Shown: positions 1,413-39,302 of the stretch, piece after piece | How positions within the stretch are numbered: position 1 is the first letter of the stretch | Layout of the letters: every line of letters starts with the position of its first letter | IMG/VR virus record: IMGVR_UViG_3300029177_000001 | Coordinates: 26,630-90,629 of that record | DNA: 64,000 bases | Direction: 5' to 3' (one strand) | Origin: a virus | Translations under genes and position numbers: made by a program | The notes under the pieces: model-generated | What the model was told of the DNA's origin: nothing | Seen by the model: only the letters and a program-made list of their open reading frames with translations | The model's database searches: none

Positions 1413-2876
1413 ATGGCAAAGAAAATCAGAAAAAAGACTTTATCTCTGGAATCATACCTGGAGGAAATAGTAGAAGAGGATATCAGTGATAACCAGGATG
1501 TACAAAGGTTATTTTGTTGGGAAAATGGGATGATAAATGAGTTGATCAAAACGGTATTGACCGATGATTATATTCCTCCGATTATTTTGGGCGAAGAAGA
1601 TTTAGATGAAGATGTCGTGCAGCAATATATCGTAGATGGAATGCAAAGAAGTTCTGCATTGATTAAATTTAAGCATGAAAACTATAAAATTACAGCTACT
1701 TTAGAAGATCCGATTATCCAATATCAGAGAAAAAAGAAAGATGAAAACAATAAAATCTGTAAAGATGAATATGGAAAAGTTATTTGGGAATCTGTTGAAT
1801 ATGATTTGAGAAGAAAAACATATGAAATGTTGCCGCCAGAATTGAAAAAAATGTTTGATGATTATCAGATTGATATTACAATACATCAACACTGCACGAT
1901 GTCACAGATTAGTAAGTTGGTGAGAAGATATAACAATCATTTGGGAATGAATACATCTCAGAAAGCATTTACTTATATTGATTTACATGCAAGAAAAATA
2001 AGGACAATATCTGAGAAAAATAAATTCTTTAAAAATTGTATGTCTTGTTCCGGTAAACAGCAATCGAAAGGTATTAGAGAAAGACTTGTATGTGAATCTG
2101 TCATGACAACGTTTTTCTTTGATAACTGGAAAAGTGCAATAAAAAATATGAGCAAATACCTAAATGAGAATGCAACAGAAGAACATTTTGATACTGTAAA
2201 TGAATATTTTAGCAGGATTGAATCTGTGTGCAAAGATAATTTCACAGAAGTGTTTGTGCCAAAAAATGTTATTGTTTGGATTCCTGTGTTTAAAGAGTTT
2301 GCTAAATTTGGATTAGATGATATTAAGTTTAAGGATTTTGTAGAAGAATTTGAAAAGTCTTTATATAAAAAAGATGTAAATGGAGTAACATTTGACAAAT
2401 TAAACGAGGATCGTCATACAAAAGGCAAGGCTATTTTAAAAGAGAAAATTAACATCTTAACTGCTCTCATGAAAGAGTATTTACATATTAAAGAAGATGA
2501 AGGAAACTTTGTTGAAGTAGAAGAGAATAATGTAATTGAAAATGTTTGTACAGAACAGAATACACTAGAATTCATCAGACATAACGTAAAAGAAGATGTT
2601 ATCGAAGATGATATTGAATTGTACAAATCACTGCTAGAAGACTGGTCAGTGGAAGTGGATAATTCGTCAAAACTTCTTGAACCTGGAAATAATAATTCAT
2701 TACTTGCCGTAATTGCATACAGTATTGAAAATGAACTTGATGAAGAAATTCCGGCATGGATGATGAGTTTCTTTAAGAGAAACGATACATATATTAAAGA
2801 TCAGAAAGAGAATTATACATATATGGTGAATGATCTTAGTGAATTTTTGAGACATAAATATGAACTTGCTGGATAG
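1413..2876 (+). CDS. DUF262 / ParB-like nuclease-domain protein (GmrSD N-domain-like)
   Basis: 487-aa ORF with strong RBS (TTGGAGGAAT); N-terminal DG(M/Q)QR motif (VDGMQRSSAL) typical of DUF262; no DUF1524/HNH half recognisable. Confidence 0.6.
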   Translation: MAKKIRKKTLSLESYLEEIVEEDISDNQDVQRLFCWENGMINELIKTVLTDDYIPPIILGEEDLDEDVVQQYIVDGMQRSSALIKFKHENYKITATLEDPIIQYQRKKKDENNKICKDEYGKVIWESVEYDLRRKTYEMLPPELKKMFDDYQIDITIHQHCTMSQISKLVRRYNNHLGMNTSQKAFTYIDLHARKIRTISEKNKFFKNCMSCSGKQQSKGIRERLVCESVMTTFFFDNWKSAIKNMSKYLNENATEEHFDTVNEYFSRIESVCKDNFTEVFVPKNVIVWIPVFKEFAKFGLDDIKFKDFVEEFEKSLYKKDVNGVTFDKLNEDRHTKGKAILKEKINILTALMKEYLHIKEDEGNFVEVEENNVIENVCTEQNTLEFIRHNVKEDVIEDDIELYKSLLEDWSVEVDNSSKLLEPGNNNSLLAVIAYSIENELDEEIPAWMMSFFKRNDTYIKDQKENYTYMVNDLSEFLRHKYELAG

Positions 2877-4609: not shown

Positions 4610-5647
4610 ATGATAAAAGGTAAAACAGATTTTGAAAAGGTATCGGATTTTGAAAATTTATATAAAGCGTATTTGGATTCAAAAGGTGGAAGAGGATTCA
4701 CAAAAAGCAGAATTAAATTTGAAATATCTGCCCTTGATGGGGTGTACCAGATTAAAAGACTTTTAGAAACAAAGAGATATGAAGTAGATAGATATAACAG
4801 ATTCAAAGTATATGAACCAAAAGAGAGAATTATAGAAGCAGGAAGTTTTAAAGACAAGATTGTGCAGCACAGTTTGTGTGACAATGTACTTCTTCCTATT
4901 TTAAGTAAGGAGTTTATATACACGAATTATGCTGGACAAGTAGGTAAAGGGACATTGTTTGGCTTAGACTGTTTGAAATATCAGATGTATTTAGCATATC
5001 AAAAATATGGATATGATTGCTGGATTATCAAAGGAGATATCAAAAAATTTTTTTATAATATTGAGCATGATGTTTTGAAAGATATTGTTTCTTACTTTAT
5101 ATCAGATTCAGATACATATTGGCTGTGCGAGAAATTCATTGATAGCACAAGTGAAAAAGGTCTACCGCTTGGAAATCAAGTTAGTCAGGTATTTGCTTTG
5201 TTATATCTCTCTGGTTTTGATCATTTTATAACCGGAGAATTAGGAATTAAATATTACGGGAGATACATGGATGATTTTTACTTAATTGTAGAATCAAAAG
5301 ATTATGCAAAATTCTGTTTACATGCTGCTGAAGAGTTTACTAAAACATTAGATATTGATCTGAATGAAAAAACTCAGATTATTCCTTTTAAAAATGGAAT
5401 TAAATTTTGTGGTTTTCACACCTATGTTACAAAAGATGGAAAAGTGATAAGAAAACTTGCAAATGAAAAGAAGAGAAAAGCAAAAAAGAAATATCGAAAA
5501 ATGGCAAAGATGTTAAGAGAGAATAAGTTATCAAAAGAAAAATTCCTAGAATCTTATGAATCTTGGAAGAATCATATTTCACATGGAAATTGTGTGAAAT
5601 TCACGTATGAGATGGACAAAATGGTGAATGAAATACTGTTTGGTTGA
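4610..5647 (+). CDS. DGR reverse transcriptase
   Basis: RT motifs incl. GLPLGNQVSQ (DGR-type [I/L]GxxxSQ rather than group II SP) and YGRYMDDFY (YxDD); 345 aa with no maturase/endonuclease domains; directly downstream of TR. Confidence 0.9.
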   Translation: MIKGKTDFEKVSDFENLYKAYLDSKGGRGFTKSRIKFEISALDGVYQIKRLLETKRYEVDRYNRFKVYEPKERIIEAGSFKDKIVQHSLCDNVLLPILSKEFIYTNYAGQVGKGTLFGLDCLKYQMYLAYQKYGYDCWIIKGDIKKFFYNIEHDVLKDIVSYFISDSDTYWLCEKFIDSTSEKGLPLGNQVSQVFALLYLSGFDHFITGELGIKYYGRYMDDFYLIVESKDYAKFCLHAAEEFTKTLDIDLNEKTQIIPFKNGIKFCGFHTYVTKDGKVIRKLANEKKRKAKKKYRKMAKMLRENKLSKEKFLESYESWKNHISHGNCVKFTYEMDKMVNEILFG

Positions 5648-6624: not shown

Positions 6625-6695
6625 TGTGGATTAGTGTAACTGGTAGCACGATGCAGCGTGGCACATAAGTAAAGGTTCGATTCCTTTATCTACAA
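6625..6695 (+). tRNA. tRNA-like element (acceptor, D-arm and T-arm fold; anticodon arm non-canonical) - possible pseudo-tRNA or tRNA-derived site
   Basis: 7-bp acceptor pairing tgtggat/atctaca (one G-U), D-arm gtgt-aactggta-gcac, T-arm aaagg-TTCGATT-ccttt; no canonical 5-bp anticodon stem found (only cacg/cgtg with 6-nt loop containing GCA). Confidence 0.3.
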
Positions 6696-12959: not shown

Positions 12960-13778
12960 ATGGATAACAGCAATTTAGCAAAAAGAATGAAACAATATGA
13001 AAGTGTTTCAAAATCAACATTGATAAGACGTATGCCAGTGATCATCAGGCTTGACGGTAGAAGTTTTCATACATTTACAAAAGGGTTTAAAAGACCATTC
13101 GATGATGTATTAGTAAAAACAATGCAAGAGACAATGAAATACCTTTGTGAAAATATTCAAGGATGTGTATTAGGTTATACGCAGTCTGATGAAATTACAC
13201 TTGTGTTAGTAGATTATAAGAACTTAGATTCTCAACCTTGGTTTGATGATGAAGTGCAGAAGATATGTAGTATTGCAGCAAGTATGGCAACTATGGCTTT
13301 TAATAAAAATTTTGAACTTTTTTCTTTAACGATGCGATTAAAAGACTCTGTAGAAAGTAATAAACTTGGTGCAGTATATAAACAAGCAATGAATAAAGGT
13401 GCAATGTTTGATGCAAGATGTTTCAATATTCCAAAAGAAGAAGTAACTAATAATATTTACTGGAGACAACTTGATGCAACGAGAAATTCTATTCAAATGG
13501 TAGGACAAGCTAATTTTTCACATAAAGAATTACAGAATAAATCGTGCAATCAAATTCAAGACATGTTATTTACACAAAAAGGAATTAACTGGAATGATAT
13601 TTCTACATATTTAAAAAGAGGAAGTTGCTGCATTAGAGAAAATTATATTTTTGAAAATTCAAACCCAAATGGTGAGACGTGTGTAGAACGAAGTCGTTGG
13701 ATAATCGACAAAGAAATCCCTATTTTTAAGGGTGAGAATAGAGAATATATTAATAGATTGGTATATGTAGGAGAATAA
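12960..13778 (+). CDS. Thg1-like protein (tRNA-His guanylyltransferase family 3'-5' nucleotidyltransferase)
   Basis: N-terminal KRMKQYE...IIRLDGRSFHTFTKGF...GYTQSDEITLVL closely matches the Thg1 family signature (RIDGRxFHxF ... SDE). Confidence 0.7.
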   Translation: MDNSNLAKRMKQYESVSKSTLIRRMPVIIRLDGRSFHTFTKGFKRPFDDVLVKTMQETMKYLCENIQGCVLGYTQSDEITLVLVDYKNLDSQPWFDDEVQKICSIAASMATMAFNKNFELFSLTMRLKDSVESNKLGAVYKQAMNKGAMFDARCFNIPKEEVTNNIYWRQLDATRNSIQMVGQANFSHKELQNKSCNQIQDMLFTQKGINWNDISTYLKRGSCCIRENYIFENSNPNGETCVERSRWIIDKEIPIFKGENREYINRLVYVGE

Positions 13779-14553: not shown

Positions 14554-15153
14554 GTGAATTATTATATTAGTGATTTACATTTATTTCATAAGAATGTGAC
14601 GAATGAAGGTTCTAATTTTGACAATAGACCATTTGATACATTGGAAGAAATGCATAAAGTGATTAAGGAAAATTGGAATTCGAAAATTACTAATGCGGAT
14701 CATGTCTATATTTTAGGAGATTTGGCATGGAAGGAAAACGAAGATGCGATTAAACTTGTTAGTACATTGCGTGGTAATAAACATCTAATTCTTGGCAATC
14801 ACGATAAAGCAACAGATCAAAGATATAAACAGTTATTTGTAGAAATAGCAAATTATAAAGAAGCGAAAGATATGATTGACGGAAAAGAGCATCATGTCGT
14901 AATGTCTCACTTTCCATTGGCTTTTTGGAATCATCAGCATCATTACAGAAGAGATGGAAAAGAGCATAAAGTGTGGTCTGTTCACTTATATGGGCACGTA
15001 CATAATTCTATGGAAGAAGATTATTATCAAGAGTATATCAAAAAACTAAACAGTGAATATGAAATTAAGTGCGTAGCAAAAAATGTAGGGTGTATGTTGT
15101 GGAATTATACACCAGTAACATTGAAAGAAATTTTAGGCAGTAAAGGAGAATAA
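14554..15153 (+). CDS. calcineurin-like metallophosphoesterase
   Basis: DLHLFH ... GDLAW ... GNHD ... GHVH motifs of the metallophosphatase superfamily. Confidence 0.65.
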   Translation: MNYYISDLHLFHKNVTNEGSNFDNRPFDTLEEMHKVIKENWNSKITNADHVYILGDLAWKENEDAIKLVSTLRGNKHLILGNHDKATDQRYKQLFVEIANYKEAKDMIDGKEHHVVMSHFPLAFWNHQHHYRRDGKEHKVWSVHLYGHVHNSMEEDYYQEYIKKLNSEYEIKCVAKNVGCMLWNYTPVTLKEILGSKGE

Positions 15154-31447: not shown

Positions 31448-31615
31448 ATGTGGGTAGTTTTTTTACTAGCAGCAATGGGATTTGCGGTTGCTACCTTGCT
31501 AGTAATTTACATCGGAAATAAAGTTGTGAATGCAATGAAAAGAGACGATATAAAACTGGACAAGGATATCAATAAAGAAAAAACAAACGAGAAGGAGAAA
31601 GAAAAACATGAGTAA
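31448..31615 (+). CDS. small single-TM membrane protein (55 aa), translationally coupled to SPFH gene
   Basis: MWVVFLLAAMGFAVATLLVIYIG...; stop overlaps SPFH start by 8 nt. Confidence 0.4.
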   Translation: MWVVFLLAAMGFAVATLLVIYIGNKVVNAMKRDDIKLDKDINKEKTNEKEKEKHE

Positions 31616-32450
31616 AAAAGGATTGGTAGTAGGAATTGTTGTAGCTGCAGCGGTTGTAGGAGGAGTATTTACAATTAAATCTGTAGAGAGAATTGGAACC
31701 GGTAAATTAGGGGTGCAGTATTCAGTAAATGGAATTAAAGAAGAGACATTGTCTGAGGGGTGGCATTTTATTAATCCATTCTTAAAGATTAAGGAATTTT
31801 CCATTGGTAATGAACAGCTCGTACTTGAAAAGGGCAAAGAAGACAATTCAATTAAGGTTGCTACTTCAGATGACGCAAGTATTTCAGTAAGTTTTCAGAT
31901 GTCATATCGGTATAAACCAGAAGAAGTAGTTTCTACATATAAGAAGTTCCGCGGTATGGACGGAGAAGATATCGTTGACCAGAGAGTGAAATCTGTACTT
32001 AAATCGAAAATCTCAGAAGTGACATCTGGATATTCCATGATGGATGTGTATTCGGGAAGTAGAACAGAAATCAACAATAAAATTACTGAATATTTAAATA
32101 ATGTATTTGGAAAAGAATATGGAATTGAAGTGTTAGATGCATCTATTATTGATGTTCACCCAGATGACAAGTTAAAAGAGTCTATTGATGCAAGGGTAAA
32201 AGCACTCCAGGAAAAGCAGCAAGCAGAAGCTGAACAGGAAAAGGTAAAAGTTCAGAAAGAAACTGAGAAGATTCAAGCAGAAGCAGATGCACAGATTGAG
32301 ATTACAAAAGCAAAAGCTGAAGCAGAAGCAAACAGATTGAAATCGGAGTCTATTACAGATGAGTTGATCAGAATGAAAGAAGCTGAGGCACATATGGAAC
32401 ACGGATTTGTGACAGTGAATGGAGCAAATACTGTTGTAACAGATAAATAA
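31608..32450 (+). CDS. SPFH/band-7 (stomatin/prohibitin/HflKC-like) domain protein
   Basis: N-terminal TM segment, SPFH core, C-terminal coiled coil (QAEAEQEKVKVQKETEKIQAEADAQIEITKAKAEAEA). Confidence 0.7.
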   Translation: MSKKGLVVGIVVAAAVVGGVFTIKSVERIGTGKLGVQYSVNGIKEETLSEGWHFINPFLKIKEFSIGNEQLVLEKGKEDNSIKVATSDDASISVSFQMSYRYKPEEVVSTYKKFRGMDGEDIVDQRVKSVLKSKISEVTSGYSMMDVYSGSRTEINNKITEYLNNVFGKEYGIEVLDASIIDVHPDDKLKESIDARVKALQEKQQAEAEQEKVKVQKETEKIQAEADAQIEITKAKAEAEANRLKSESITDELIRMKEAEAHMEHGFVTVNGANTVVTDK

Positions 32451-35090: not shown

Positions 35091-36119
35091 ATGAATCTGA
35101 AACAAATTAAAGAAACGATAAAGAAACAAGAATATGATTTCTTAAAAGAGAATGAGCACTTAGGTAACAATATTATCTTACTTACGCTTGGCGGCAGTCA
35201 CGCATATGGAATGGATAAAGAGGACAGTGATTTAGACGTAAGAGGAGTTACACTAAATAGCAAAGAGGAAATTCTTCTTGGAAAAGACTTTGAACAGGTT
35301 GTAGAGATTGATACAGATACGACAGTTTATTCATTCAATAAAATTTTACAATTACTAAAATCAAACAATCCTAACACTATTGAAATTTTAGGATGTAAAC
35401 CTGAGCATTATTTATATTTGTCTGATGTTGGAAGAGAATTGTTAAATAATAGAAAAATGTTCTTATCCAAGATTTGTATTAATTCTTTTGCAGGATACGC
35501 TTCAAGTCAATTAAGGCGTATGGAGAACAAAGCTGCTAGATTAGTTGGACAAGCACAAAATGAAGAGTACATTTTAAAATCAATTAATAATGCAAGTTAT
35601 GATTTTAAAAATCGTTATTTCCCAATGAATGATGGATCACTCAATCTTTATACAGATAAAGCAGTACAGGAAGGCTATGACACTGAAATTTTTATGGATA
35701 TTGACTTGCGACATTATCCTCTAAGAGATTGGGCTGGTATGTGGAATGAGATGAAAGCTATTGTAAGTAGTTATAACAAAATCGGTAGGCGAAACGAAAA
35801 AGCAATGAACAAGGACAAACTTGGAAAGCATATGGCTCATTTGATCAGATTATACATGATGTGTATTGACATTCTTGAAAAAGAAGAAATTATCACTTAT
35901 CGAGATAAAGAACATGATCTACTTATGAGTATACGAAACGGAGAATACTTAGATATCAATAGGCAGCCAACTTCTGAATTTTATGATTTGCTAAATGAAT
36001 ATGAAAAACGATTCGATTACGCTAAAGAAAATACTTCGTTGCCAAATGTACCGGACTACAAGAGAATCGAAGAGTTTAAAATGTATGTAAATGAACGAAT
36101 TGTGAAAGGAGATATATAA
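35091..36119 (+). CDS. Pol-beta superfamily nucleotidyltransferase
   Basis: GGSHAYGMDKEDSDLDVRGV = GS-x9-DxD minimal NTase signature. Confidence 0.6.
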   Translation: MNLKQIKETIKKQEYDFLKENEHLGNNIILLTLGGSHAYGMDKEDSDLDVRGVTLNSKEEILLGKDFEQVVEIDTDTTVYSFNKILQLLKSNNPNTIEILGCKPEHYLYLSDVGRELLNNRKMFLSKICINSFAGYASSQLRRMENKAARLVGQAQNEEYILKSINNASYDFKNRYFPMNDGSLNLYTDKAVQEGYDTEIFMDIDLRHYPLRDWAGMWNEMKAIVSSYNKIGRRNEKAMNKDKLGKHMAHLIRLYMMCIDILEKEEIITYRDKEHDLLMSIRNGEYLDINRQPTSEFYDLLNEYEKRFDYAKENTSLPNVPDYKRIEEFKMYVNERIVKGDI

Positions 36120-37081
36120 TGGATATTTCTGAAAAACTGAAAGAACGTTTCTGTAAAGATTGTAATATTCCATTGAAACTATTTAAGGAACCATATTTTA
36201 CAGACAGACTTCAATTATATGATAACTATTACAATACATTGGATAAATGGAATATTTTTGTAAGAGAATTAGATAAATATAAGTGTGAGCAAGATTATCT
36301 TGAAGAATATAATCGAGTAAAGAATGCTGCAATAAAGGACATTAAAGATTCTGATGGTTACAAGAGATTTAATGTAGAAGACATGAATAAGTACACAGTA
36401 AAATACAAAGATCTTCCGGGAAAAGATATTTATAAACCATCAAACATCGGAAAACTGTTTATCAGTATTGATATGAGAAAGGCAAATTTTTCAGCATTAA
36501 AATTTTATGATAAAAGTATTTTTAGTAACTCTGATACATGGGAAGAATTTATTGAAAGATATACGGAGAATAAACATATCGTAAACAGCAAATATATTAG
36601 ACAAGTCATTCTTGGAAACTGTAATCCTAAAAGGCAGGTGACTTATGAAAAATATTTGATGGGTCTTGTATTAGAAGTTCTTATTGATGAATTAGGATAT
36701 TCCACTAGTGATATTGCGTTTTACTCTAATGATGAAATTGTTATTGATATGGGAAAATATAAAGGCTGTATAAATAAACAAAAAATATTAGAAATGGCAG
36801 TTAACGTACGTTTTAATATTCCATTCAGGATTGAATTGTTTTACTTACACAAAATTACTGGTACAGATGGATATTACAAGGAAATTGTAAAAAATATTAT
36901 TGAAATAGAATATGAATTTAAATGCTTAAACAATTATACATTACCATTTGTGCTGAGAAAGTTTAATGGAGAAGAAATCACTGAAAACGATAAAGTATTT
37001 TATCATGAAGGGCTACTATCAAAGTTTATGGAAGTACCAAATATGGAGGTAAAATTGAATGAAAATAAATATTCCGTCTGA
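36119..37081 (+). CDS. hypothetical protein (320 aa)
   Basis: sits between NTase and CCA-adding enzyme, overlapping both. Confidence 0.45.
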   Translation: MDISEKLKERFCKDCNIPLKLFKEPYFTDRLQLYDNYYNTLDKWNIFVRELDKYKCEQDYLEEYNRVKNAAIKDIKDSDGYKRFNVEDMNKYTVKYKDLPGKDIYKPSNIGKLFISIDMRKANFSALKFYDKSIFSNSDTWEEFIERYTENKHIVNSKYIRQVILGNCNPKRQVTYEKYLMGLVLEVLIDELGYSTSDIAFYSNDEIVIDMGKYKGCINKQKILEMAVNVRFNIPFRIELFYLHKITGTDGYYKEIVKNIIEIEYEFKCLNNYTLPFVLRKFNGEEITENDKVFYHEGLLSKFMEVPNMEVKLNENKYSV

Positions 37082-38396
37082 TGCAAATGAGTTGATTCAT
37101 ACACTTCAAAATCACGGAAATTCCGCTTATGTGGTAGGTGGTTGTGTAAGAGATAGCATCATTGGAAGACAAATTCACGATTGGGATATTTGTACATCTG
37201 CAACACCAGACGAAATGCTGGAGATTTTTAAGGATAAAAAAGTAATTGAAACTGGCTTAAAACACGGAACTATAACTGTTGTGGTAAAAGGAGAATCATA
37301 TGAATTAACAACATTTCGTATTGATGGAAAATATTCTGATAGTCGTAGACCTGATTCAGTAATTTTCACAAGTAGTTTAATTGAAGATTTAAAGAGACGT
37401 GATTTCACAATCAATGCAATGGCATATAATGATGACGAAGGATTAATTGATCCATTTGGGGGATTAGAAGATATTGAATATAAAAAAATTCAATGTGTAG
37501 GTTCTGAAAAAGATAGATTTGGAGAAGATGCTTTAAGGATCTTGAGAGCAATTCGTTTTGCTTCTCAACTTGAATTTGTGATGACCCCGGAAACAAGTTA
37601 TGAAATCAATAAACAATACAAAAATTTGAAGAATATTTCGATTGAGAGAATAAATAGTGAGTTTTGCAAAATCGCCGCATCAAGAGATTTCTGTGTAGAA
37701 ATGGTTTTATATAAAGATGTGTTTGCATTGTTTATACCGGAATTAAAAGATATGTTTGAATTCCAACAGAATAACCCATATCACGATTATGATGTTTACA
37801 GTCATACAGTACATTCAATTGAACATTGTAAATCCGATAATTTGGTTGTTAGATTGGCGGTTTTCTTTCATGATATTGGAAAACCTCATTCATTTCAAGA
37901 TGGCGAAGACGGTATTAGACACTTTAAAGGACATGGAAAAGTTAGTGCAGACATTACAGACAATATTATGAAACGTCTCAAATTTGACAATGAGACAAGA
38001 AATAATGTGGTTGAATTGGTGTATTACCATGATGCAACCTTTGAGGTTGGTAAAAAATATGTGAGAAGATGGATCAATAAGATTGGAGTAGAACAGTTTA
38101 GAAGACTATTGGAAGTTAGGAAAGCAGATATTTTAGGGCAGAAAGAATCTTATGAGCAGTATAGGATTAACAAAGTTAATAATATTAAACAAATTCTTGA
38201 AGAAGTTCTACGAGAAGAAACATGTTTTACACTTAAAGATTTAGCTGTCAATGGCAACGATTTAATGAGTATTGGTTATAAAGAAAACAAAGAATTAGGC
38301 AATACACTAAATGAATTATTACGATTAGTAATTGATGAAGAATGTCCTAATAAAAAAGAAAAATTATTAGAAGTAGCAATTGAAAGGAGAATGTAA
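37059..38396 (+). CDS. cca: CCA-adding tRNA nucleotidyltransferase with HD domain
   Basis: GGCVRD head-domain motif, RRDFTINA, HD motif (FHDIGK), RBS GGAGGT. Confidence 0.8.
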   Translation: MKINIPSDANELIHTLQNHGNSAYVVGGCVRDSIIGRQIHDWDICTSATPDEMLEIFKDKKVIETGLKHGTITVVVKGESYELTTFRIDGKYSDSRRPDSVIFTSSLIEDLKRRDFTINAMAYNDDEGLIDPFGGLEDIEYKKIQCVGSEKDRFGEDALRILRAIRFASQLEFVMTPETSYEINKQYKNLKNISIERINSEFCKIAASRDFCVEMVLYKDVFALFIPELKDMFEFQQNNPYHDYDVYSHTVHSIEHCKSDNLVVRLAVFFHDIGKPHSFQDGEDGIRHFKGHGKVSADITDNIMKRLKFDNETRNNVVELVYYHDATFEVGKKYVRRWINKIGVEQFRRLLEVRKADILGQKESYEQYRINKVNNIKQILEEVLREETCFTLKDLAVNGNDLMSIGYKENKELGNTLNELLRLVIDEECPNKKEKLLEVAIERRM

Positions 38397-39302
38397 TTGA
38401 TTAAATTATTCACACACCGGGATTTAGATGGAATTGGTTGTGCGGTTCTGGCACAATTGACATTTGGTAAAAATGTAGATATTACATATTGTAACTATGA
38501 TGAAGTAGATTCTCTTGTGAAAGAATACATTACCAAAATGGACAAAGATCATGATACGTGTTTTATTACAGACATTAGTATTAAGGATGATTTGGCTTCT
38601 GAGATTGATAGAGAATATAAAAATAATTTCAAATTATTTGATCATCACAAAACAGCATTAGAACTCAATAAATATGATTGGTGTACTGTTGAAACAGAGA
38701 ATAATGATACAGGTCTTATGACAAGCGGTACAGAATTATTTAGTAAATATCTGATTGACCATAAATATTTAGATGTGGATGTAAGTGATTTTGTAAGAAT
38801 TGTAACAGATTACGACACATGGAGATGGTCAACACTTGGTAAGGACGGACTCGTTTCAAAAGATGTAAATGACTTGTTGTATTTATATGGAAGAGAAAAA
38901 TTTGAAACGTGGTGTATTAGATGTATTGAATCTGGCAGATTTCCTCATTTTGACCAAGAGTCAAGTTTGATGTTGTCATTTAATAGGAATGAAATTGAAA
39001 AATATATCAAAGAAAAAGATAAGACAATTATTGTTAAGTGCAATGGAGAATATATGTATGGTGTTGTTTTTGCAGATAAATATATCAGTGAATTAGGTAA
39101 TGAATTATGTAAATTGAATAGAGAACTTGATTATATTGCAATTGTAAATATGAGTACACGTTCAGTTTCTTATAGAACTATCAAAGATGATATTGACATG
39201 GGTATGATTGCAAAGAAATATGGAGGCGGTGGTCATCCAAAAGCAGCAGGATCAAAATTTGATGTTTATAAACTTGCAAGATTTCTTGATGAGTTGTTGT
39301 GA
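38397..39302 (+). CDS. DHH/DHHA1 phosphoesterase (NrnA-like oligoribonuclease / pAp phosphatase)
   Basis: THRDLDGIGCA, FDHH, C-terminal GGGGHPKAAG (DHHA1); TTG start after AAAGGAG. Confidence 0.75.
   Translation: MIKLFTHRDLDGIGCAVLAQLTFGKNVDITYCNYDEVDSLVKEYITKMDKDHDTCFITDISIKDDLASEIDREYKNNFKLFDHHKTALELNKYDWCTVETENNDTGLMTSGTELFSKYLIDHKYLDVDVSDFVRIVTDYDTWRWSTLGKDGLVSKDVNDLLYLYGREKFETWCIRCIESGRFPHFDQESSLMLSFNRNEIEKYIKEKDKTIIVKCNGEYMYGVVFADKYISELGNELCKLNRELDYIAIVNMSTRSVSYRTIKDDIDMGMIAKKYGGGGHPKAAGSKFDVYKLARFLDELL

What the first reader, a model, noticed from the sequence alone, without database searches (positions are those of the whole stretch)
35091..39302. Second RNA-end-processing cluster: Pol-beta NTase, CCA-adding enzyme (HD), DHH/NrnA phosphoesterase
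Three consecutive RNA-end enzymes (minimal NTase 35091-36119, CCA-adding enzyme 37059-38396, DHH-DHHA1 phosphoesterase 38397-39302) with an unknown 320-aa protein between. Together with the Thg1-like gene they would allow repair of both tRNA 3' ends (CCA, after cyclic-phosphate removal) and 5' ends. This is a plausible counter-defence module against anticodon/acceptor-stem nucleases (PrrC/RloC/VapC/colicin-like).
Basis: inference. Interest (0 to 1): 0.6.

Follow-up and report, generated by a model that had tools for sequence, protein, structure and literature searches.

The report
Phage RNA-end cassette with mini-polymerase
A large gut phage carries a tightly packed four-gene cassette of RNA-end enzymes, and the "unknown" gene in it belongs to an undescribed, widespread family of miniature polymerase-like proteins that sits beside an RNA-repair nucleotidyltransferase in 87 of the 103 loci examined.

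Summary
The four ORFs exist at the stated coordinates, and the three domain calls are correct: an RlaP-family Pol-beta NTase, a class II CCA-adding enzyme with an HD domain, and a DHH/DHHA1 phosphoesterase. All have intact catalytic motifs.

The main new result concerns the 320-aa unknown. It models at pLDDT 94.6 as a palm-plus-fingers right-hand polymerase. Its closest structural matches are family B DNA polymerases, and it carries PolB-like motifs A, B and C. It has no Pfam, PHROG, NCBIfam or PDB sequence match.

The family spans 1577 clusters at 50% identity. Structural relatives occur in giant viruses. RlaP is directly adjacent in 87 of 103 loci examined.

RlaP, the mini-polymerase, CCA and DHH travel as one block with different flanks in two phage lineages. 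In relatives, Thg1, RNA ligases and kinase-HD genes lie nearby.

The tRNA-repair and counter-defence reading is plausible and already anticipated in the literature, but it is unproven. Two points cut against it. Related phages carry tRNA genes without an encoded CCA, which gives the CCA enzyme an ordinary maturation role. DHH orthologs in other phages sit in DNA-replication modules.

Verdict: a new variant of a known kind of module, containing a probably new polymerase family.

The parts
35091..36119 (+). RlaP-family (PF10127) Pol-beta nucleotidyltransferase, 342 aa
   Evidence: Pfam RlaP 8.9e-21 and phrog_388 1.6e-47. G35-S36, D47-x-D49 and D76 are invariant in an alignment with T4 NrdC.11, Bacillus phage JBP901 gp145 and five metagenomic homologs.
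36119..37081 (+). Undescribed miniature PolB-like palm+fingers polymerase-like protein ('unk320'), 320 aa
37059..38396 (+). Class II CCA-adding tRNA nucleotidyltransferase with HD phosphohydrolase domain, 445 aa
   Evidence: PolyA_pol head 7.4e-40, HD 4.7e-07 and tRNA_NucTran2_2 2e-12. NCBIfam PRK13299 302.5 bits, above the 290 cut-off, and HDIG 28.1 bits, above 27.6. Best solved relatives are the CCA-adding enzymes 6ibp and 1miv at about 1e-59. All head motifs and HD ligands are conserved.
38397..39302 (+). Stand-alone DHH/DHHA1 phosphoesterase (COG2404 / NrnB-like), 301 aa
   Evidence: DHH and DHHA1 Pfam hits, and phrog_4771 at 8e-30. H7-x-D9-x-D11, D59, D82-H83-H84 and G276-GGG-H280 are invariant in 22 homologs. 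JGI names homologs 'oligoribonuclease NrnB/cAMP/cGMP phosphodiesterase'. AF2 model has pLDDT 88.8. The best PDB matches are 6mtz (H. pylori), PAP phosphatase 8a8k, PggH 7d62, RecJ2 and NrnA.
12960..13778 (+). Thg1-like 3'-5' nucleotidyltransferase. It lies 22 kb away here but directly upstream of RlaP in some relatives.
   Evidence: Pfam Thg1 2.5e-33. Thg1-RlaP-unk320 are contiguous in L054, L055 and L057. Thg1 lies within 3 kb of unk320 in 6 loci.

Best explanation
Genes 35091-39302 form a co-transcribed cassette, possibly translationally coupled, whose products act on RNA 3' ends, most probably those of tRNA.

Shown by sequence or structure prediction:
1. An RlaP NTase with an intact active site.
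2. A miniature right-hand polymerase-like protein with a full set of palm carboxylates and a PolB-like motif B helix.
3. A complete CCA-adding enzyme carrying a conserved HD metal-phosphohydrolase domain.
4. A DHH/DHHA1 phosphoesterase with all catalytic motifs.

Inferred mechanism:
- tRNAs whose 3' ends are eroded, cut or blocked are cleaned. The damage could come from host defence nucleases or toxins, or from ordinary turnover. The HD domain and/or the DHH enzyme would remove a 3'-phosphate or 2',3'-cyclic phosphate, or trim nucleotides.
- Missing nucleotides are then put back. The mini-polymerase may do this using the 5' strand of the acceptor stem as template. RlaP adds 1-2 untemplated nucleotides.
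- The CCA enzyme rebuilds the CCA end.
- The same CCA enzyme also matures the phage's own tRNAs, whose genes lack CCA in relatives.
- The Thg1-like enzyme elsewhere in the genome does the mirror-image repair of 5' ends.

The position five residues after the motif A aspartate selects the sugar in palm polymerases. It is an invariant Asn here rather than the Tyr of DNA polymerases, so I predict that the mini-polymerase uses rNTPs.
For: - Domain and motif evidence.
- Tight packing with no internal terminator-like site.
- Cassette conservation among 72 viral loci: 33 have RlaP+unk320+CCA+DHH, 19 have RlaP+unk320+CCA, 8 have RlaP+unk320+DHH (plus L070, where unk320 is only partial), and 7 have RlaP+unk320 only.
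- The four-gene block, with overlapping junctions, is kept in a lineage whose flanking genes are all different.
- RlaP-unk320 adjacency persists down to 35-42% identity (L091-L094, L105), once in the reversed order (L092).
- RNA-repair genes lie nearby in relatives: Thg1 directly upstream (L054, L055, L057); an Rnl1-like ligase with an AAA_33 kinase and an HD protein (L010); PF09414 ligases (L025, L026, L095); kinase-HD fusions (L051, L091).
- A distant family member sits beside a SpoT-type HD_4 hydrolase, an aminoacyl-tRNA synthetase and RF-1.
- Structure of unk320.
- Motif match to T4 gp43: SFDLTSLYPS against S-I-D-L-K-K-A-N-F, and KILINSLYG against K-Y-I-R-Q-V-I-F-G.
- RlaP biochemistry on RNA 3'-OH: PMC12776372.
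- Published prediction of RlaP, CCA and Thg1 as phage RNA repair: PMC7824862.
- DHH-DHHA1 fusions to tRNA nucleotidyltransferases are noted in PMC12709177.
Against: - No biochemical or genetic data exist for any of these four proteins.
- No RNA ligase homolog was found in the 64-kb window, whereas RlaP is defined by association with ligases.
- CCA and DHH are each dispensable in many relatives, so the cassette is modular rather than obligate.
- DHH orthologs in other phages lie in DNA-replication contexts. In the window the cassette directly precedes the replication/recombination module (Sak4-like, DnaB-like, primase, Pol III alpha).
- Many unk320 relatives are stand-alone, some in what look like chromosomal housekeeping contexts (L082, L083).
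- The loci counted are phylogenetically non-independent.
Confidence: 0.55

Rival explanations
1. The cluster is a juxtaposition of separate functions. The CCA enzyme simply matures phage-encoded tRNAs whose genes lack CCA. RlaP and the mini-polymerase are a separate two-gene unit of unknown role. The DHH protein belongs to the adjacent DNA replication/recombination or nucleotide-salvage module, as a mini RecJ-like or nanoRNase-like nuclease.
For: Related loci carry tRNA-Gln, Lys, Met, Ile and Thr genes near the cassette, and none has an encoded CCA. CCA and DHH are independently present or absent. DHH orthologs at 52-53% identity lie right after Pol III alpha and a RecD2-like helicase (L117, L118), or after an ATP-dependent DNA ligase near Pol III alpha and an ERCC4 nuclease (L114). 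In the closest relatives, DHH stays syntenic with the downstream genes p126, p131, p433 and Sak4 even when CCA is missing. Structural neighbours include RecJ and RecJ2.
Against: The four-gene block with overlapping CCA/DHH junctions is kept in a lineage where no replication genes flank it. Thg1, RNA ligase and kinase-HD genes cluster with the block in relatives. The host must already have a CCA enzyme, because Firmicute tRNA genes often lack CCA (general knowledge, not tested here). So maturation alone does not explain why the phage carries its own copy.
Confidence: 0.25
2. The DHH/DHHA1 protein is an anti-signalling enzyme. It degrades cyclic di- or oligonucleotide second messengers (CBASS, type III CRISPR, c-di-AMP) or their linear products, and its position next to the CCA gene is incidental.
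For: Phage DHH phosphodiesterases were predicted to counter SMODS and type III CRISPR signals (PMC7824862, section 3.4.8). Structural neighbours include the pGpG-specific PggH, and NrnA/Pde2. The gene is patchily distributed, as expected for a counter-defence gene.
Against: There is no specific similarity to a characterised ring nuclease. The best structural match is the H. pylori protein 6mtz, followed by PAP phosphatase. JGI annotates homologs as NrnB/COG2404. NrnB proteins are general 3'-5' exoribonucleases (PMC12709177). No PADLOC hit.
Confidence: 0.1
3. The 320-aa protein is not a template-copying polymerase. It could be a palm-domain enzyme of another kind, such as a nucleotide cyclase or oligonucleotide synthase, a terminal transferase, or a protein-priming factor. 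Alternatively it could be a non-catalytic RNA-binding partner that gives RlaP its substrate specificity.
Confidence: 0.15

Closest known systems
RlaP-containing RNA repair operons (Pseudomonas RtcB-RlaP-RtcA; phage T4 NrdC.11)
   Same: ORF 35091-36119 is an RlaP with the same invariant G-S, DxD and third Asp as T4 NrdC.11. RlaP adds 1-2 NMP to RNA 3'-OH ends and is proposed to restore nucleotides lost to 'smart' ribotoxins (PMC12776372).
   Different: Here RlaP is paired with a mini-polymerase-like protein and a CCA enzyme rather than with an RNA ligase. No ligase was found in the window. T4's neighbouring gene NrdC.10 is not related to unk320; it carries a P-loop-like GAAGIGKT motif (hhalign probability 2.4%).
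RNA-repair repertoire of jumbo phages (Iyer et al. 2021, PMC7824862): RNA ligases, PNK, phosphoesterases, RlaP, CCA-adding enzyme, Thg1
   Same: The same enzyme families occur in a large phage. The same counter-defence logic was already proposed for RlaP, CCA and Thg1.
   Different: That survey lists the components by their presence across genomes. It describes neither a conserved RlaP-polymerase-CCA-DHH cassette nor the 320-aa family, and it reads DHH phosphodiesterases as anti-signalling enzymes rather than RNA-end enzymes.
Family B DNA polymerases (RB69/T4 gp43, Pol delta, Pol alpha, phi29)
   Different: unk320 is 320 aa against more than 570. It has no exonuclease domain, no detectable sequence homology and no Pfam DNA_pol_B hit. 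Its fingers are drastically shortened. Motif C is D-E rather than D-T-D. The Tyr steric gate is replaced by an invariant Asn.
Bacterial NrnB / stand-alone DHH-DHHA1 nanoRNases (PMC12709177, PMC10570053)
   Same: The architecture is the same two domains, with DHH and GGGH motifs. Homologs are assigned to COG2404. The best structural match is the H. pylori protein 6mtz.
   Different: Sequence similarity to solved DHH proteins is marginal (E >= 0.025). The substrate is unknown. The genomic context is split between a tRNA-enzyme cassette and DNA-replication modules.
Thg1-like proteins (TLPs) that repair 5'-truncated tRNAs by templated 3'-5' addition
   Same: The system is conceptually complementary: a palm-domain enzyme restoring acceptor-stem nucleotides. 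A Thg1-like gene is encoded by the same phage and lies adjacent to RlaP-unk320 in relatives.

Membership tests
RlaP (PF10127) Pol-beta NTase | Scores above the Pfam gathering threshold for PF10127 | tested here: met
   75.1 bits against a cut-off of 23, E 8.9e-21. The match covers only profile positions 14-144 of 249. phrog_388 covers the full length.
RlaP (PF10127) Pol-beta NTase | Pol-beta active site: hG[GS], [DE]x[DE] and a third carboxylate | tested here: met
   G35-S36, D47-x-D49 and D76 are invariant across 8 sequences including T4 NrdC.11.
RlaP (PF10127) Pol-beta NTase | Gene neighbourhood with an RNA ligase (origin of the family name) | tested here: inconclusive
   jackhmmer with three ligase queries found no ligase in the 64-kb window. 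Rnl1-like or PF09414 ligases lie within about 2-5 kb of the cassette in L010, L025, L026, L091 and L095.
RlaP (PF10127) Pol-beta NTase | Adds 1-2 NMP to RNA 3'-OH | not testable with these tools
   This activity is known only for two Pseudomonas enzymes (PMC12776372).
Class II CCA-adding enzyme | Head-domain motifs A (GGxVRD...DxD), B (RRD), C, D (EDxxR) and E (ERxxxE) | tested here: met
   All are present in the window protein and conserved in 45-48 of 48 related sequences. It aligns to 6ibp and 1miv over residues 9-235 at about 1e-59.
Class II CCA-adding enzyme | Passes a curated equivalog model for CCA tRNA nucleotidyltransferase | tested here: met
   NF009814/PRK13299 scores 302.5 bits against a cut-off of 290. 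The poly(A) polymerase, A-adding and E. coli-type multifunctional models all fall far below their cut-offs.
Class II CCA-adding enzyme | Adds C, C and A (not only CC or A) to tRNA | not testable with these tools
   The loop between motifs A and B (YSDSRRPDSV) resembles that of the solved CCA enzyme 6ibp (YSDNRRPDSV) in the alignment. This is suggestive only.
HD-domain phosphohydrolase (in the CCA enzyme) | H...HD...H...HD...D metal-ligand pattern, and a score above the curated cut-offs | tested here: met
   PF01966 scores 30.5 bits (cut-off 22) and TIGR00277 HDIG scores 28.1 (cut-off 27.6). H249, H271-D272, H292, H324-D325 and D357 are conserved in 45-46 of 48 sequences.
DHH/DHHA1 phosphoesterases (NrnA/NrnB/RecJ superfamily) | Motifs I (DxD), II (D), III (DHH) and IV (GGGH) | tested here: met
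   D9-x-D11, D59, D82-H83-H84 and G277-G-G-H280 are invariant in 22 homologs.
DHH/DHHA1 phosphoesterases (NrnA/NrnB/RecJ superfamily) | Pfam gathering thresholds for DHH and DHHA1 | tested here: inconclusive
   DHH scores 26.2, below 28.1. DHHA1 scores 26.0, above 25.9. phrog_4771 at 8e-30 and Foldseek probability 1.00 to 6mtz, 8a8k, 7d62, RecJ2 and NrnA support superfamily membership.
NrnB nanoRNase (COG2404) | General 3'-5' exoribonuclease activity on short RNAs (the defining feature according to PMC12709177) | not testable with these tools
   The only support is JGI's COG-based name for homologs and the best structural match to the H. pylori protein 6mtz.
Family B DNA polymerase (considered for the 320-aa protein) | Palm with motif A Asp at the end of strand 1, a fingers insert with motif B Lys, and motif C acidic residues in the beta2-beta3 hairpin | tested here: met
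Family B DNA polymerase (considered for the 320-aa protein) | Detectable sequence homology (Pfam DNA_pol_B, or a PDB sequence match) | tested here: not met
   No Pfam hit. phmmer and profile hmmsearch against PDB sequences found nothing relevant.
Family B DNA polymerase (considered for the 320-aa protein) | N-terminal 3'-5' exonuclease domain, and DTD in motif C | tested here: not met
   The protein is only 320 aa with an all-helical N-terminal 100 residues. Motif C is [SN]-D-E. It is therefore not filed as a PolB member, only as PolB-like in fold and motifs.

The most novel reading that the evidence does not exclude
The 320-aa protein founds a new family of miniature, PolB-derived, rNTP-using polymerases. 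The family is found in phages, Firmicutes, Asgard-archaeal MAG contigs and giant viruses. In this reading the enzyme performs templated 5'-3' fill-in of damaged RNA 3' ends, for example the 3' strand of the tRNA acceptor stem. It would hand over to RlaP for untemplated nucleotides and to the CCA enzyme for the CCA end. That would make it the missing counterpart of Thg1-like 5'-end repair, and together they would form a complete acceptor-stem repair pathway.
Probability: 0.2. Interest if true: 0.85.

Novelty: new variant of a known kind. Interest (0 to 1): 0.62.

Why it matters
Phage RNA repair is the classic counter to tRNA-cleaving defences such as PrrC and RloC, and a growing list of newer systems also targets tRNA. 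Known repair toolkits consist of end-healing enzymes, ligases and template-independent NTases.

A conserved cassette that couples RlaP and a CCA enzyme to a polymerase-like protein suggests an extra step, resynthesis of lost nucleotides, which has no characterised enzyme on the 3' side.

The 320-aa family also matters in its own right. It is large (1577 clusters at 50% identity) and unannotated in every library queried here (Pfam, PHROGs, NCBIfam, PADLOC, PDB sequences). It is structurally related to replicative polymerases but a third of their size, and it is shared between phages and giant viruses. It would interest polymerase enzymologists and could be a compact enzyme for RNA 3'-end engineering.

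If the cassette only matures phage tRNAs, the finding is ordinary apart from the new protein family.

Tried and rejected
1. Megablast of the 4.2-kb region against 50,697 phage records found no match. The lineage has no cultured representative.
2. T4 NrdC.10, the gene next to T4's RlaP (NrdC.11) and of similar size (325 aa), was tested as a possible unk320 homolog and rejected. hhalign probability was 2.4%, and the protein carries a P-loop-like GAAGIGKT motif.
3. phmmer and profile hmmsearch of unk320 against PDB sequences found nothing.
4. The RlaP sequence found nothing in PDB sequences either.
5. A genome-contig scan with the 48-sequence alignment failed because no block was conserved enough. 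I repeated it with a 10-sequence alignment.
6. Viral-contig scans with the divergent members P0251 and P0264 found nothing.
7. A Pfam scan of ten longer family members, looking for fused domains, found only a PLD-like nuclease on a truncated copy, which is probably an insertion.
8. The afdb50 fold library was unavailable.
9. Burroughs & Aravind 2016, the paper that defined RlaP, is not held in the library.
10. Neighbourhoods in Salicola phage SCTP-2, LR756502 and MT835533 contained no RlaP, CCA or DHH genes.
11. The promoter scan showed no enrichment over shuffles.
12. I considered an RNA-ligase identity for unk320, because RlaP partners are usually ligases. I rejected it because the fold is a polymerase palm and there is no KxDG motif.

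Full report
**Setting.** The window is 31% G+C with a uniformly positive GC skew, and essentially all long ORFs lie on the + strand. Its gene content is that of a large virulent phage:
- Pol III alpha-like polymerase, RecD-like helicase, DnaB-like helicase, primase and a Sak4-like ATPase;
- NAD-dependent DNA ligase, NrdD/NrdG, and other replication and nucleotide-metabolism genes.

Megablast finds no relative among 50,697 phage records. IMG/VR holds 72 related loci on contigs of up to about 200 kb. Related blocks also occur in Lachnospiraceae genome assemblies, so the host is very probably a gut Lachnospiraceae.

**Observation.**
- ORF1 (35091-36119) is an RlaP NTase: PF10127 at 8.9e-21 and phrog_388 at 1.6e-47. 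In an alignment with T4 NrdC.11 and six other homologs, the Pol-beta signature G35-S36, D47-x-D49 and D76 is invariant.
- ORF3 (37059-38396) is a class II CCA-adding enzyme: head domain at 7.4e-40, and 302.5 bits against the NCBIfam equivalog PRK13299 (cut-off 290). Its best solved relatives are the CCA-adding enzymes 6ibp and 1miv at about 1e-59.
- Motifs A-E of the CCA enzyme, and the metal ligands of its HD domain, are conserved in 45-48 of 48 distinct related sequences.
- ORF4 (38397-39302) is a two-domain DHH/DHHA1 protein. Motifs DxD, D, DHH and GGGH are invariant in 22 homologs. Its Pfam scores sit at the thresholds, but phrog_4771 matches at 8e-30.
- The predicted DHH structure (pLDDT 88.8) matches DHH enzymes with Foldseek probability 1.00. 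The matches are the H. pylori protein 6mtz, PAP phosphatase 8a8k, PggH, archaeal RecJ2 and NrnA. JGI names homologs 'oligoribonuclease NrnB/cAMP/cGMP phosphodiesterase'.

The genes overlap or abut (1 nt, 23 nt, 0 nt). No terminator-like site occurs before 40460.

**The 'unknown 320-aa protein'.** It has no match in Pfam, PHROGs, NCBIfam, PADLOC or PDB sequences, either as a single sequence or as a profile. It is nonetheless a member of a large family.
- An exhaustive phmmer search found 1577 representative clusters at 50% identity with E <= 0.001, and 402 with E <= 1e-30. Almost all are about 300-330 aa, and all that carry a name are 'hypothetical protein'.
- With a 48-sequence alignment, AlphaFold2 gives a confident model: pLDDT 94.6, pTM 0.90.

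The conserved residues map onto the canonical palm:
- A helical insert carries S157-K158-x2-R161-Q162-x3-G166.
- D205-E206 lies in the hairpin between strands 199-202 and 206-210.
- Across 39 members down to 27% identity, E206, S116 and D291 are invariant. D118, D205, N123, K158, R161, Q162 and G166 are at least 90% conserved.

I extracted T4 gp43 from the T4 record and compared it directly.
- Motif A reads SFDLTSLYPS in gp43 and S-I-D-L-K-K-A-N-F in the family consensus.
- Motif B reads KILINSLYG in gp43 and K-Y-I-R-Q-V-I-F-G in the family.
- The pattern K-x3-[N/Q]-x2-[Y/F]-G is shared, and the motif order is the same.
- The spacing is much shorter: 40 residues from A to B, against 149 in gp43.

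The residue five positions after the motif A aspartate is the sugar selector in palm polymerases. It is Tyr in PolB and reverse transcriptases and Asp in RdRPs (established knowledge, recalled rather than tested here). In this family it is Asn in 38 of 39 members. From this I infer, without proof, that the enzyme accepts rNTPs.

Foldseek against BFVD adds close structural homologs in giant viruses:
- a Klosneuvirus 'R3H domain protein' (E 1.5e-16, TM 0.84, rmsd 2.5 A, 21% identity);
- proteins from Hyperionvirus, Barrevirus, Clandestinovirus, Pandoravirus, Moumouvirus and Tupanvirus;
- a 695-aa medusavirus protein described as a DEDDy 3'-5' exonuclease.

Only one cultured phage among 50,697 records, Salicola phage SCTP-2, encodes a member. 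That explains why the family has gone unnoticed. I found no paper describing it.

**Linkage.** In all 72 IMG/VR loci retrieved with unk320, RlaP lies in the locus. It is directly upstream of unk320 in the 71 loci where unk320 itself was detected.
- Over all 103 loci with a family member, RlaP is within 300 bp in 87. The CCA gene is directly downstream in 59. DHH is within 3 kb in 47. Thg1 is within 3 kb in 6. These loci are not independent.
- The adjacency survives in divergent branches. These are L091, L093 and L094 (42% identity, Clostridia and Ruminococcus assemblies, RlaP-unk320-CCA), L105 (35% identity, bacterial-looking context) and L092 (order reversed).
- Among the 72 viral loci the combinations are: all four genes in 33, no DHH in 19, no CCA in 8 (plus L070, where unk320 is only partial), and RlaP+unk320 only in 7.
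- In a second phage lineage (about 61% identity for unk320), the four-gene block keeps its overlapping junctions while every flanking gene differs from the window's. That is the behaviour of a functional cassette.
- Relatives add canonical RNA-repair genes close by. Thg1 lies directly upstream of RlaP in L054, L055 and L057. L010 has an AAA_33 kinase, an HD protein and an Rnl1-like ligase. L025, L026 and L095 have PF09414 ligases with the PHA02142 OB domain. L051 and L091 have kinase-HD fusions.
- A distant member lies beside a SpoT-type HD_4 hydrolase, a class II aminoacyl-tRNA synthetase and RF-1.
- In the window itself no RNA ligase homolog was detected.

**What it most likely does.** RlaP is now biochemically defined for two Pseudomonas enzymes. 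It adds one or two NMPs to RNA 3'-OH ends, not to DNA, prefers a cleaved-tRNA mimic, and is needed to restore aminoacylation of over-damaged tRNA (PMC12776372). Iyer et al. had already read RlaP, CCA enzymes and Thg1 of large phages as RNA repair (PMC7824862).

Given the cassette behaviour, the best-supported reading is an RNA (tRNA) 3'-end maintenance module with three steps:
1. End cleaning by the HD domain and possibly the DHH enzyme.
2. Nucleotide restoration by the mini-polymerase and RlaP.
3. CCA rebuilding by the CCA enzyme.

The step assigned to the mini-polymerase, templated fill-in of the acceptor stem with rNTPs, is my inference. It would mirror Thg1-like 5' repair.

**What weakens it.**
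- Related phages carry tRNA-Gln(UUG), Lys(UUU), Met, Ile(UAU) and Thr genes within a few kb of the cassette, and none encodes CCA. Routine maturation of phage tRNAs is therefore a sufficient reason to carry a CCA enzyme.
- DHH orthologs at 52-53% identity sit immediately after Pol III alpha and a RecD2-like helicase, or next to an ATP-dependent DNA ligase, in other phages. In the window the cassette abuts the replication/recombination module. The DHH protein may therefore be a RecJ-like or salvage nuclease, or an anti-signalling phosphodiesterase as proposed for phage DHH enzymes (PMC7824862, section 3.4.8).
- Many family members are stand-alone, some in apparently chromosomal contexts such as rlmH-unk320-ruvAB (L083) or pcrA-unk320-ligA (L082).
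- The polymerase call rests on a predicted structure and motif resemblance.

**Verdict.** The idea of a phage tRNA-end repair set is already in the literature. New here are the conserved RlaP, mini-polymerase, CCA and DHH cassette, and the recognition that the 'unknown' gene belongs to a large, unannotated, PolB-like mini-polymerase family shared with giant viruses. I rate the module as a new variant of a known kind, with interest 0.62. The most novel reading, a dedicated RNA 3'-end repair polymerase, has about 0.2 probability and would be of high interest if true.

Noticed in passing
window 6625-6695 (+): A tRNA-like element scores 46.9 bits with Rfam RF00005 (gathering score 29), but ARAGORN does not call it. 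Its anticodon arm is one nucleotide short and cannot form a normal 5-bp stem, and no CCA is encoded. It lies about 1 kb downstream of a reverse-transcriptase ORF.
   Followed up: partly
window 4610-5647 (+): A reverse transcriptase in a phage genome. It matches the PADLOC RT model at 2.9e-34, Drt3a at 1.4e-22, and the NCBIfam group II intron RT/maturase at 100 bits (cut-off 300). No group II intron RNA was reported by Rfam at gathering thresholds.
   Followed up: no
window 31608-32450 (+): An SPFH/Band_7 protein (Pfam 2.7e-26) lies 2.6 kb upstream of the cassette. From memory, SPFH modules with a tRNA-like RNA were proposed as RNA-repair scaffolds by Burroughs & Aravind 2016. That paper could not be read here.
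   Followed up: no
window 12960-13778 and 14554-15153 (+): A Thg1-like gene (Pfam 2.5e-33) has a calcineurin-type metallophosphoesterase-like ORF (sequence motifs; no Pfam hit) 0.8 kb downstream. An ORF with similar motifs precedes the unk320 homolog in the 642-kb phage LR756502 (L120 7999-8664).
   Followed up: partly
L054 2927-4611: A macro-domain-like ORF and a PARP-like protein (WGR-like N-terminus, by inspection of the sequence only) lie just upstream of Thg1-RlaP-unk320 in a related phage. NADAR-like ORFs (also by inspection) lie near unk320 in L089 and L090. Together these suggest a counter-defence gene neighbourhood.
   Followed up: no
L069, L070; protein P0121: In some relatives the unk320 gene is interrupted or truncated. 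P0121 joins a PLD-like nuclease domain (PLDc_2, 1.8e-12) to the C-terminal half of unk320, which suggests insertion of a mobile nuclease gene.
   Followed up: partly
L089 and L096, 5413-6912: In two Lachnospiraceae assemblies, unk320 is fused to a roughly 190-aa N-terminal domain with no Pfam match. It lies downstream of an HD-like ORF and a NADAR-like ORF.
   Followed up: partly
L012 1882-2033; L028 319-546; L052 5711-6209; L054 970-2907: Related phages encode tRNA-Gln(UUG), tRNA-Lys(UUU), tRNA-Met, tRNA-Ile(UAU) and tRNA-Thr close to the cassette, all without an encoded CCA. Lys(UUU) and Gln(UUG) are classic targets of anticodon nucleases (general knowledge).
   Followed up: partly
window 1413-2876 (+): A 487-aa protein has a weak match to the GmrSD_N/DUF262 domain (27 bits, below the 33.2 cut-off). 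Homologs recur in related loci (L012, L028) and near other unk320 family members (L101, L105).
   Followed up: no
L014 4805-5974; L010 4825-5991: Two tandem genes that look TerD-like (judged by inspection of the sequence; no domain search was run on them), plus a coiled-coil membrane protein, lie directly upstream of RlaP in one phage lineage.
   Followed up: no
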